64,000 nucleotides of DNA from Rickettsiales bacterium (GTDB taxonomy: Bacteria > Pseudomonadota > Alphaproteobacteria > Rickettsiales > JABIRX01). A program made the translations under genes and the position numbers. This document shows positions 60,937 to 61,596 of this stretch, piece after piece (position 1 is the first letter of the stretch; each line of letters starts with the position of its first letter). The notes under the pieces were generated by a model. It saw only the letters and a list, made by a program, of their open reading frames with translations, was not told where the DNA came from and ran no database searches. The stretch spans positions 11,039-75,038 of the forward strand of contig JABJNB010000018.1 of NCBI GenBank assembly GCA_018659145.1, given 5' to 3'.

Positions 60937-61596
60937 ATGCGACCTTATTTTATCACTGGCATTGGTACAGATGTTGGCAAAACATTTATCTTAAGCAAAA
61001 TCATTGAAAGCTTATTAGCTGAGAATAAATCAGTTGCCGCAATCAAACCTATTATCACAGGTATTGATTCAGATAATTTTAGCGATTCAGATAGTTATAA
61101 AATATTAAATAGCTTAAGACGCGGAGATATTAATAGTAGGGGCGGGGTCCTCCCGCCCGCCTTAAAACAAATCTCCCCTTTCCTCTTCAAAAATCCATTA
61201 TCACCAGATCAAGCGGCGGCGTTAGAAAATACCCAAATCCCCTATGATGAGTTATTAACTTTTTCTAAGGAGTTTTTGGCCGCAAATAAGCAAAAAGACT
61301 ATAGCTTCATAGAAGGTGTTGGAGGCGTCTTTGTACCAATCAATCAAGATAAGCTAGTTATAGATCTGCTTGATGATTTAAATATAAAAGTAATCTTGAT
61401 AGCTAATAATTACCTAGGCTGCCTAAACCATACTCTAGCAACATTAAAAGCCTTAGAGCATCACGATGTTGTAATCTATTTCAACAATCACCCAGCACAT
61501 GATAATTACGCAGCTAATCTAGCTAGTCTAAAAAATTTCACGAATTGCCCTATTCATACTGATGTAGCAGAGTTGTTGCTTGAAATAAAAATCTAG
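60937..61596 (+). CDS. bioD: Dethiobiotin synthase-like protein
   Basis: P-loop YFITGIGTDVGKT, IKPIITG, IEGVGG and LGCLNHT align along E. coli BioD. Carries an in-frame repeat insert. Confidence 0.8.
   Translation: MRPYFITGIGTDVGKTFILSKIIESLLAENKSVAAIKPIITGIDSDNFSDSDSYKILNSLRRGDINSRGGVLPPALKQISPFLFKNPLSPDQAAALENTQIPYDELLTFSKEFLAANKQKDYSFIEGVGGVFVPINQDKLVIDLLDDLNIKVILIANNYLGCLNHTLATLKALEHHDVVIYFNNHPAHDNYAANLASLKNFTNCPIHTDVAELLLEIKI
61135..61158 (+). repeat. Family A GC-hairpin half-element inside the bioD reading frame
   Basis: agtaggggcggggtcctcccgccc matches the element arm cgtaggggcggggtcctcccgccc (49990..50013) at 23 of 24 nt. With the next codon (gcc) it translates as SRGGVLPPA, starting at codon 67. 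Confidence 0.85.

What the first reader, a model, noticed from the sequence alone, without database searches (positions are those of the whole stretch)
61135..61158. GC-hairpin half-element inserted in frame in bioD, adding SRGGVLPPA to the protein
The 24-nt stretch agtaggggcggggtcctcccgccc begins exactly at codon 67 of the bioD-like ORF. It matches the repeat arm seen in intergenic copies (49990..50013) at 23 of 24 nt. With the following gcc codon it reads SRGGVLPPA without breaking the frame. The insert lies between the conserved IKPIITG and SPFLF...SP blocks, where E. coli BioD has a variable loop. In-frame invasion of ORFs by palindromic repeats is the hallmark of Rickettsia RPEs; here it is seen with a different element.
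Basis: partly seen in the sequence, partly recalled or inferred. Interest (0 to 1): 0.6.

Follow-up and report, generated by a model that had tools for sequence, protein, structure and literature searches.

The report
REP hairpin repeat inside bioD gene

Summary
Window 61136-61158 is an exact copy of the 23-mer GTAGGGGCGGGGTCCTCCCGCCC, starting at codon 67 of an intact bioD. Chance expectation is zero. All 70 other BioD homologues examined lack this sequence, including a fully syntenic orthologue that has an 18-nt gap there. The identical gene is seen in at least five independent metagenome assemblies.

The interpretation needs correcting. The "half-element" is a complete REP unit: a GTAG tag plus a 7-bp stem and 5-nt loop. 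The 73-nt intergenic hairpins are inverted REP dimers (REPINs). A related MAG has a REP-associated tyrosine transposase (RAYT) gene flanked by these REPs. The window holds only a decayed RAYT remnant.

Only 1 of 142 copies surveyed lies inside a gene, so ORF invasion is not a hallmark of this element here. Intragenic single REPs encoding 7-9 residues are already published, and small Rickettsia RPEs are themselves REPs of the CGTC class.

The insert maps to a low-confidence coil in an otherwise confident BioD model. A different REP dimer sits in the same loop of another BioD. The best reading is a tolerated passenger in a permissive loop: a new member of a known kind, of low to moderate interest.

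The parts
60937..61596 (+). bioD (dethiobiotin synthetase), 219 codons plus stop, intact
   Evidence: The ORF is listed. TIGR00347 bioD scores 120.7 bits against a cut-off of 83.3. All invariant residues of 71 homologues are kept. The AF2 model has mean pLDDT 93.8 and TM 0.82-0.83 to solved BioD structures.
61136..61158 (+). REP singlet in frame (codons 67-74, S-RGGVLPP): GTAG tag 61136-61139, stem 61140-61146 (GGGCGGG), loop 61147-61151 (GTCCT), stem 61152-61158 (CCCGCCC)
   Evidence: It is an exact 23-mer match with 0 expected by chance. The hairpin has dG -9.7 kcal/mol as DNA and -14.8 as RNA. The syntenic orthologue has an 18-nt gap here. GC3 is 8/8 in the insert against 0.267 in genes.
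61159..61170 (+). GCCTTAAAACAA: ambiguous right boundary, either REPIN-spacer remnant or native codons A-L-K-Q
   Evidence: It matches the spacer start GCCTGTAAACAA of a REP subfamily in the relative at 10 of 12 positions. It also matches the orthologue's native sequence at 8 of 12.
61652..61712 (+). Degenerate REPIN (inverted REP dimer) in the bioD-folB convergent spacer
   Evidence: Sequence and alignment A6. The orthologous spacer in JADHOX01 is 0 nt long.
49990..50062 (+). Best-preserved REPIN: two inverted REPs with GTAG ends outward and a 25-nt spacer
   Evidence: Arms are 96% complementary. DNA fold dG is -34.2 kcal/mol, z = -9.6.
55790..55862 (+). REPIN, both arms with 3 mismatches, spacer conserved
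22944..23017 (-). REPIN with one exact arm (22994-23016) and one decayed arm, at a site shared with the relative MAG
   Evidence: The exact arm is 23/23 identical to L092 2181-2203 inside an otherwise poorly alignable spacer.
46955..46977 (+). Intergenic REP singlet (3 mismatches) upstream of the ORF starting at 47043
26576..26847 (-). Decayed RAYT (REP-associated tyrosine transposase) remnant: in-frame stop, frame break, HUH region deleted, C-terminal half missing
   Evidence: tblastn with the relative's RAYT gave E 2e-14 in two pieces.

Best explanation
The 23 bases at 61136-61158 are one complete monomer of a GTAG-type REP (repetitive extragenic palindrome): a GTAG tag followed by a 7-bp G+C stem with a 5-nt loop.

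The family populates this genome and a related marine Rickettsiales MAG, mostly as inverted dimers (REPINs) in intergenic spacers. It is the substrate type of a RAYT / TnpA_REP single-strand HUH-tyrosine transposase.

One copy entered bioD. It arrived either directly as a monomer or, more likely given the literature on singlets, as a REPIN that later lost its spacer and second arm. The outcome kept the reading frame, with a net gain of 18 nt (6 residues).

It survived for two reasons. The REP is stop-free in that frame, and it fell in a loop between helix 2 and strand 3 of BioD that tolerates extra residues. It is most likely a neutral or slightly deleterious passenger. BioD most likely remains a working enzyme carrying an extra RGGVLPP loop, and its mRNA carries a small G+C hairpin.

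Shown here: the identity of the repeat, the insertion polarity, the loop location, gene intactness, the presence of a RAYT in a relative, and a RAYT wreck in the window. Inferred: RAYT-mediated mobilisation, the REPIN-then-deletion route, and neutrality.
For: - **Repeat identity.** The 23-mer has 7 copies in the window against 0 expected. Across the window plus 311 kb of a relative there are 142 copies, 94 of them exact, and none in shuffles.
- **REP anatomy.** GTAG plus a 7-bp stem and 5-nt loop. Dimers have a conserved 25-nt spacer.
- **Not chance elsewhere either.** GTA precedes the searched 20-mer in 44 of 52 loci from other phyla, although GTA was not part of the pattern.
- **RAYT in the relative.** ORF L020 1228-1776 hits NCBIfam REP-associated tyrosine transposase at E 2e-18. 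Its homologues are named RayT by JGI. It is flanked by REPs and contains one in frame, as published for subclass 2.4 (PMC6006769).
- **RAYT remnant in the window**.
- **Insertion polarity.** All 70 other homologues lack this sequence at the site. The syntenic orthologue (ilvD-SLT-rlpA-bioD-folB-ald-ampG-pfkB) has an 18-nt gap and no REPs.
- **Not an artefact.** The nucleotide sequence is identical in 5 assemblies.
- **Permissive loop.** Only residues around 61-73 have low pLDDT, and they are coil. The fold matches solved BioD structures. An unrelated 72-nt REP dimer sits in the same loop of P0041.
- **Same REP in frame in other phyla.** It occurs in frame in MoeA, HsdR and a GAF histidine kinase.
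- **Precedent.** Intragenic single REPs are published (PMC3733652), and singlets are described as REPIN remnants (PMC3116915).
Against: - No intact RAYT was found for the window genome itself. There is only a remnant, and no RAYT homologue between 54% and 99% identity exists in the protein database.
- The L020 RAYT scores below the curated cut-offs: 66.7 bits against 80 for NCBIfam, and 21.9 against 23 for Pfam.
- REP transposition into a new site has never been shown directly. That statement rests on literature knowledge.
- The bioD copy is a perfect match to the master sequence. Published singlets tend to be more decayed than doublets, so the perfect match fits a recent direct insertion, or constraint, at least as well as an old REPIN remnant.
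- Insert boundaries cannot be fixed: 23 to 35 nt of similarity against an 18-nt net gain.
- Expression and activity of this BioD are untested.
Confidence: 0.85

Rival explanations
1. The intragenic REP is retained because it does something. Its G+C hairpin could pause translation, mark the mRNA for processing, or serve as a DNA site for RAYT, gyrase or IHF-like proteins. Alternatively, the RGGVLPP loop could change BioD properties.
For: The copy is a perfect match to the master sequence while several intergenic copies in the window have decayed. REP arms are conserved 23/23 at a shared intergenic site across roughly 15-25% genomic divergence. The RNA hairpin has dG -14.8 kcal/mol. The allele is the only one recorded, with a cluster size of 1.
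Against: It is a single case among 142 copies. The closest orthologues work without it. The insert lies in a low-confidence coil. A different REP sits in the same loop elsewhere, which is what survivorship in a permissive loop predicts. The codons are unadapted.
Confidence: 0.07
2. bioD is on its way to being a pseudogene. The REP insertion is one lesion in a gene that is no longer needed.
For: bioD stands alone, without other bio genes next to it. Genome reduction is common in Rickettsiales (general knowledge).
Against: The ORF is full length. All 12 invariant and 15 near-invariant residues of 71 homologues are kept. It scores above the TIGR00347 equivalog cut-off. Mean pLDDT is 93.8. The same stand-alone position of bioD is conserved in two relatives.
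Confidence: 0.05
3. It is a new RPE-like element class specific to this lineage that specialises in invading ORFs.
For: The host is a Rickettsiales MAG. The insertion is in frame.
Against: The identical 23-mer occurs in more than 10 phyla. It has the GTAG tag and a RAYT partner. Only 1 of 142 copies is intragenic. RPE-1 elements are 100-150 bp, and RPE-4 and RPE-6 are CGTC-tagged (PMC3733652).
Confidence: 0.02
4. It is a chance resemblance or an assembly chimera.
For: REPs frequently sit at contig ends in the relative's assembly, so they do disturb assembly.
Against: No matches occurred in 100 shuffles. The nucleotide sequence of the gene is identical in 5 contigs from different samples and assemblers. 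The frame is preserved and the flanks are collinear with the orthologue.
Confidence: 0.01

Closest known systems
GTAG-type REPs and REPINs with their RAYT / TnpA_REP transposase (Bertels & Rainey 2011, PMC3116915; Di Nocera et al. 2013, PMC3733652). The best subclass match is TnpA_REP subclass 2.4, equal to RAYT group 4 (Quentin et al. 2018, PMC6006769).
   Same: It has a 5' GTAG tag at the foot of a G+C hairpin whose stem bottom is three G-C pairs. Copy number is high and copies are mostly extragenic. Inverted dimers have a conserved spacer. In the relative, a RAYT gene is flanked by REPs and carries a REP in frame between its HuH and Tyr motifs. Singlets occur alongside dimers.
   Different: The host is a small, A+T-rich marine Rickettsiales lineage. 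PMC6006769 notes that Rickettsiales have few or no such genes. The window genome shows only a RAYT wreck. The RAYT of the relative scores below curated cut-offs.
Intragenic REPs (Di Nocera et al. 2013, Additional file 3)
   Same: Single REPs lie in frame in known genes and add 7-9 residues, for example VGAGLPA in P. putida. They are interpreted there as tolerated in linkers or loops.
   Different: bioD is not among the listed hosts; the biotin-related entries are a biotin carboxylation domain protein and a biotin-protein ligase. Here polarity is backed by a syntenic orthologue and a structure model.
Rickettsia palindromic elements (RPE-1 to RPE-8; Ogata et al. 2000 and 2002, cited from my own knowledge)
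   Same: Palindromic repeats are inserted in frame in genes of a Rickettsiales bacterium and are compatible with protein function.
   Different: RPE-1 is 100-150 bp and often intragenic. RPE-4 and RPE-6 are CGTC-tagged REPs (PMC3733652). The present element is GTAG-tagged, 23 nt, partnered with a RAYT, shared with many phyla, and intragenic only once in 142 copies.
The BioD of P0041 (alphaproteobacterial metagenome contig L111)
   Same: It carries an in-frame palindromic repeat in the very same loop of BioD.
   Different: That repeat is a 72-nt dimer of a different REP family, read as VIPAQAGIH...MDPRLRGND, the peptide type listed for CGTC REPs. It adds about 19 residues.

Membership tests
GTAG-type REP / REPIN | 5' GTAG (GT[AG]G) tetranucleotide directly at the foot of the hairpin | tested here: met
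   GTAG at 61136-61139 is followed by the stem. GTA precedes the 20-mer in 44 of 52 loci from other phyla.
GTAG-type REP / REPIN | Short (20-40 nt) imperfect palindrome with a 6-13 bp G+C stem | tested here: met
   The unit is 23 nt with a 7-bp stem and 5-nt loop. DNA dG is -9.7 kcal/mol, and none of 200 shuffles folds as well.
GTAG-type REP / REPIN | Many copies per genome, overwhelmingly extragenic | tested here: met
   There are 142 copies in 375 kb (window plus the relative's loci), and 141 lie outside open frames of 150 or more codons. The sample is biased because the relative's loci were picked by the repeat.
GTAG-type REP / REPIN | Inverted dimers forming one long hairpin with a conserved spacer | tested here: met
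   Examples are 49990-50062, 55790-55862 and 22944-23017. The dimer fold has dG -34.2 kcal/mol and z = -9.6.
GTAG-type REP / REPIN | Cognate RAYT gene in the same genome, flanked by the REPs | tested here: inconclusive
   This is met in the related MAG at L020 1228-1776. In the window there is only a decayed remnant at 26576-26847. The rest of the window genome was not available.
GTAG-type REP / REPIN | Cleavage and rejoining of the REP single strand by the RAYT; mobility | not testable with these tools
   This needs biochemistry or population sequencing.
RAYT / TnpA_REP subclass 2.4 (for L020 ORF 1228-1776) | HUH motif plus catalytic Tyr motif; match to curated RAYT models | tested here: inconclusive
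   The motifs PNHMHGII and WQRNYYEH...YIYNNP are present. NCBIfam NF047646 gives E 2e-18 but 66.7 bits against a cut-off of 80. Pfam Y1_Tnp gives 21.9 against 23. There are 1930 homologues, many named RayT.
RAYT / TnpA_REP subclass 2.4 (for L020 ORF 1228-1776) | REP inserted in frame inside the gene between the HuH and Tyr motifs | tested here: met
   L020 1483-1553 reads VGAGLSRP...GWENPTPT immediately after the HUH motif. This feature is described in PMC6006769.
Rickettsia palindromic elements (RPE) | RPE-1-like palindrome of 100-150 bp, or the CGTC tag of RPE-4 and RPE-6 | tested here: not met
   The unit is 23 nt and GTAG-tagged. The definition is taken from PMC3733652. No alignment against RPE consensus sequences was run.
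Rickettsia palindromic elements (RPE) | A sizeable fraction of copies lie in frame inside ORFs | tested here: not met
   Only 1 of 142 copies does.
BioD (dethiobiotin synthetase) | Equivalog-level model match and conserved catalytic residues (P-loop GxxxGKT, K37, D52, E126-GxGG) | tested here: met
   TIGR00347 scores 120.7 bits against 83.3. The invariant columns are kept.
BioD (dethiobiotin synthetase) | BioD fold | tested here: met
   The AF2 model has pLDDT 93.8 and pTM 0.91. TM is 0.82-0.83 to 3of5, 2qmo and 3mle.
BioD (dethiobiotin synthetase) | Enzymatic activity with the insert present | not testable with these tools
   This needs complementation or an enzyme assay.

The most novel reading that the evidence does not exclude
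The evidence does not exclude two things.

(a) The perfect REP hairpin inside bioD may be kept by selection, for example as an intragenic regulatory or protein-binding hairpin.

(b) More broadly, one 23-nt REP master sequence is shared unchanged by bacteria of more than ten phyla. It may act as a recurrent, portable source of 8-residue protein loops (VGAGSSRP, RRGGVLPP) in unrelated enzymes such as BioD, MoeA, HsdR, sensor kinases and the RAYT itself.
Probability: 0.07. Interest if true: 0.55.

Novelty: new member of a known kind. Interest (0 to 1): 0.25.

Why it matters
The case gives a clean, well-polarised example of how a REP monomer can lengthen a protein loop without breaking the enzyme. 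The evidence is a syntenic orthologue without the insert, an identical allele in several metagenomes, and a confident structure model. It also extends the REP/REPIN-RAYT system to small, A+T-rich marine Rickettsiales genomes.

It does not open a new question. Intragenic REPs, REPs inside RAYT genes and in-frame RPEs are all in the literature.

The practical lesson is for annotation. G+C-rich 8-residue motifs such as RGGVLPP, VGAGSSRP and GREDPAPT in proteins from A+T-rich genomes should be read as REP footprints.

Tried and rejected
- **Rfam scan of the whole window.** Only one tRNA was found and nothing matched the repeat.
- **Search for an empty-site allele.** Two scans of metagenome contigs, one with flank patterns spanning the site and one with the left flank alone, returned nothing, not even the filled allele. 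The pattern does match the window, so that collection does not hold this organism and the presence/absence test could not be done. The protein database holds a single sequence in the 90% cluster, so no insert-free allele is on record.
- **Viral contigs.** Only one hit of the 23-mer was found in 2.9 million contigs, so phages are not an obvious carrier.
- **Cross-phylum 20-mer hits.** I first took these for chance matches in G+C-rich genomes. I rejected that after seeing GTA upstream in 44 of 52 loci.
- **E. coli RAYT query.** The hit was then checked with curated models.
- **REP decay comparison.** Comparing decay between the window (3 of 9 arms exact) and the relative was abandoned, because the relative's loci were selected by exact matches.
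- **Insert boundaries.** Similarity to REP copies extends 23, 27 or up to 35 nt, but the right flank also aligns with the orthologue's native codons. The boundaries are unresolved.
- **Wider search for intragenic copies.** I looked for more degenerate copies (up to 6 mismatches) and for G+C spikes in window ORFs. None lay in real genes.

Full report
**1. The observation**

The window reads agtaggggcggggtcctcccgccc at 61135-61158. The surrounding ORF, 60937..61596 on the + strand, has 219 codons. Codon 67 starts at 61135, so the stretch is read S-R-G-G-V-L-P-P, followed by A. The intergenic copy at 49990-50013 differs only at the first base.

The 23-mer GTAGGGGCGGGGTCCTCCCGCCC has 7 matches with at most 3 mismatches in the 64-kb window. 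None appears in 100 dinucleotide-preserving shuffles. The window averages about 35% G+C, so these copies stand out.

The ORF is dethiobiotin synthetase. Pfam AAA_26 gives E 2e-27. NCBIfam TIGR00347 bioD scores 120.7 bits against a cut-off of 83.3.

**2. It is an insertion**

A search of 5.8 billion proteins found the identical protein (P0001, named as from a Rickettsiales MAG). The next best hits were only 53-56% identical. In alignments of 17 and 71 BioD sequences, every other homologue lacks this sequence at the site. Sixty-nine have 19-23 residues in the segment where the window protein has 29.

The best comparator is P0002. It comes from another Rickettsiales MAG (GCA_016778805.1) and sits in the same gene order: ilvD, SLT_2, RlpA-like, bioD, folB, alanine dehydrogenase, ampG-like, pfkB. 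The DNA alignment shows an 18-nt gap in that orthologue exactly under the G+C core. Its 7 kb contain no copy of the repeat even at 5 mismatches.

The insert-bearing gene is identical at the nucleotide level in five contigs from different samples and assemblers, so it is not an assembly artefact. The 90% cluster of P0001 holds one sequence, so no insert-free allele is recorded.

**3. What the repeat is**

The "arm" is itself a hairpin. After GTAG come GGGCGGG, GTCCT and CCCGCCC, giving a 7-bp stem and a 5-nt loop. The DNA dG is -9.7 kcal/mol, and none of 200 shuffles folds as well. A 5' GTAG at the foot of a short G+C palindrome defines GTAG-type REPs (PMC3733652). A stem bottom of three G-C pairs is the canonical type reported for TnpA_REP subclass 2.4 (PMC6006769).

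The 73-nt intergenic elements lie at 49990-50062, 55790-55862 and 22944-23017. Each is two inverted REPs with GTAG outward and a conserved 25-nt spacer. They fold as one long hairpin with dG -34.2 kcal/mol and z = -9.6. These are REPINs in the sense of PMC3116915.

Another singlet lies intergenically at 46955-46977. A degenerate REPIN fills the bioD-folB spacer at 61652-61712. That spacer is 0 nt long in the orthologous genome.

**4. The transposase partner**

A scan of species-representative genomes with the 20-mer core returned about 49 blocks from one MAG, Rickettsiales bacterium SI075_bin127. That MAG shares genes with the window at 75-87% nucleotide identity, so it is a relative and not the same genome.

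In its locus L020, an ORF at 1228-1776 is flanked by REPs. The ORF hits NCBIfam "REP-associated tyrosine transposase" at E 2e-18. The score is 66.7 bits, below the 80-bit cut-off. It hits Pfam Y1_Tnp at 21.9 bits against 23. It has 1930 homologues, many named "REP element-mobilizing transposase RayT" by JGI.

It keeps the HUH motif (PNHMHGII) and the WQRNYYEH...Y motif. It also carries a REP dimer in frame at L020 1483-1553, right after HUH, which is probably why it scores below the cut-offs. That feature is published as typical of subclass 2.4, equal to RAYT group 4 (PMC6006769).

In the window itself I found only a wreck of such a gene at 26576-26847 on the - strand. It has an in-frame stop and a frame break, the HUH region is deleted and the C-terminal half is gone. 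No RAYT homologue between 54% and 99% identity to the L020 protein is in the protein database. Whether the window genome still has a working RAYT is open. Published work links RAYT loss to slow REPIN decay (bioRxiv 10.1101/2021.07.10.451892).

**5. How common is gene invasion?**

The window plus 311 kb of the relative hold 142 copies of the 23-mer at 6 or fewer mismatches. Ninety-four are exact, and shuffles give none. Only the bioD copy lies in an open frame of 150 or more codons. Scanning the window for G+C spikes found no further candidate in genes. For this family and lineage, ORF invasion is a rare accident rather than a hallmark. The sample is biased towards REP-rich blocks and is not a whole genome.

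**6. Why it was tolerated**

The REP is stop-free in five of six frames; only the frame that reads TAG is closed (read directly from the sequence).

An AlphaFold2 model built on 71 sequences has mean pLDDT 93.8 and pTM 0.91. The only weak stretch is residues 61-70 (block mean 60), with 71-80 at 84. Residues 60-73 are coil between helix 52-59 and helix 74-79. The model superposes on solved BioD structures at TM 0.82-0.83. All invariant and near-invariant residues of the family are present.

One other BioD in the alignment, P0041, has an insertion in the same loop. It is a 72-nt in-frame palindrome (L111 1687-1758) reading VIPAQAGIH...MDPRLRGND. That is the peptide type listed for CGTC-class REPs (PMC3733652, Additional file 3). 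Two unrelated REP families in the same loop argue for a permissive site.

The insert's eight codions all end in G or C, against GC3 of 0.267 in the window's genes. They are minor codons at 5-20% usage, so the sequence has not been adapted to the host.

**7. Mechanism: shown and inferred**

Shown: repeat identity, polarity, frame, loop location, an intact gene, a RAYT partner in a relative, and a RAYT remnant in the window.

Inferred from the IS200/IS605-RAYT literature (PMC3116915, PMC6006769): mobilisation as single-stranded DNA by the HUH-tyrosine enzyme.

The route is uncertain. Published analysis treats singlets as remnants of REPINs (PMC3116915). The 12 bases after the bioD REP (GCCTTAAAACAA) match the spacer start of a REPIN subfamily in the relative (GCCTGTAAACAA) at 10 of 12 positions. 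That would fit a REPIN that lost its spacer and distal arm. The same bases also match the orthologue's native codons at 8 of 12. The bioD copy is moreover a perfect master sequence, which fits a recent direct insertion equally well. The net gain is 18 nt while similarity to REP copies spans 23-35 nt, so a few native codons were probably lost in the event.

**8. Comparison with known systems, and novelty**

The element passes the sequence-level tests for a GTAG REP/REPIN. It fails those for RPE-1 (size) and for RPE-4 and RPE-6 (CGTC tag). Intragenic single REPs adding 7-9 residues are tabulated for several species (PMC3733652). In-frame REPs inside RAYT genes are described (PMC6006769).

The same 23-mer also occurs in frame in genes of other phyla. 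Hosts include a MoeA (L098), a type I restriction R subunit (L004), a protein with a type I specificity domain (L025) and a GAF histidine kinase carrying a whole REPIN (L044).

The finding is therefore a new member of a known kind. What is mildly new is the host lineage and the bioD target. PMC6006769 notes that Rickettsiales have few or no such transposases.

**9. Verdict**

The interpretation needs correcting, and the phenomenon is already described. Interest is 0.25.

The most novel reading still open is that the perfect intragenic hairpin is selected, or that this pan-phylum REP is a general supplier of protein loops. I give that about 7%.

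Noticed in passing
window 26576-26847 (- strand): A decayed RAYT (REP-associated tyrosine transposase) gene lies between lipA (26849-27778) and an aminotransferase-like ORF (25715-26533). It has an in-frame stop and a frame break, the HUH region is deleted and the C-terminal half is missing. A separate G+C palindrome sits next to it at 26531-26559.
   Followed up: partly
L020 1228-1776, REP dimer at 1483-1553 (relative MAG SI075_bin127): An apparently intact RAYT is flanked by REPs and carries a REP dimer in frame right after its HUH motif (MVGAGLSRPEIWGLFNDGWENPTPT). 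Many homologues from other phyla read VGAGxxRP...GxExxPx at the same place (alignment A3). This is already described for TnpA_REP subclass 2.4 (PMC6006769).
   Followed up: yes
L001-L101 (genome-contig hits of the 20-mer): The exact 23-mer GTAGGGGCGGGGTCCTCCCGCCC occurs in 44 of 52 loci from non-Rickettsiales bacteria, often with an inverted partner 21-100 nt away. Hosts include Anaerolineae/Chloroflexi, Nitrospirae, Omnitrophota, Poribacteria, Pseudanabaenaceae, Leptolyngbya PCC 7375, Bacillota, Elusimicrobiota, Deltaproteobacteria and Geobacter. An identical REP master sequence across so many phyla suggests horizontal spread or extreme constraint.
   Followed up: partly
L098 1289-2572; L004 1248-4355(-); L025 4223-6613; L044 850-7998: The same REP lies in frame in real genes of other phyla: MoeA (VGAGSSRP within the MoeA_N domain), a type I restriction HsdR, a protein with a type I specificity domain, and a 2383-residue GAF histidine kinase carrying a whole REPIN (VGAGSSRP...GQGDPAPT).
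   Followed up: partly
L111 1687-1758 (BioD P0041, alphaproteobacterial metagenome contig): An independent 72-nt in-frame palindromic repeat of another family (VIPAQAGIHRDESSHMDPRLRGND) sits in the same BioD loop. There, bioD lies next to bioC-like and bioH-like genes.
   Followed up: partly
window 22994-23016 versus L092 2181-2203: At a shared intergenic site, one REP arm is 23/23 identical between the two genomes while the rest of the spacer is barely alignable. The distance between arms also differs, 25 nt against about 80 nt. This could reflect conservation, gene conversion or re-insertion.
   Followed up: partly
window 49893-49989, 23018-23100 (-), 61612-61651: REPINs share a flanking module of about 85 nt on one side (GCACTACTGCCTAGAGTTA...TTTTTTACAAATCTGAYCAATATA). 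The mobile or duplicated unit may therefore be a composite of about 160 nt. The copy after bioD has only the first part.
   Followed up: partly
window 4852-16340 versus L019: About 11.5 kb present in the window is absent from the collinear region of the relative MAG. Flanking genes align at 76-80% identity.
   Followed up: no
JABJMA01 loci (for example L005, L010, L022, L032, L041, L094-L099): REP copies lie within the first or last 60 nt or so of many contigs of the relative's assembly. There are also dense REP clusters of up to 8 arms in 4 kb. The repeats evidently break short-read assembly.
   Followed up: no
window 18861-18940, 23078-23095, 49893-49911: Other short G+C-rich islands unrelated to the 23-mer occur here, for example GTGCGCGCCCGGGTTAGG and CCCCCTCGCGCTTTGCCC. 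They may belong to a second repeat family.
   Followed up: no
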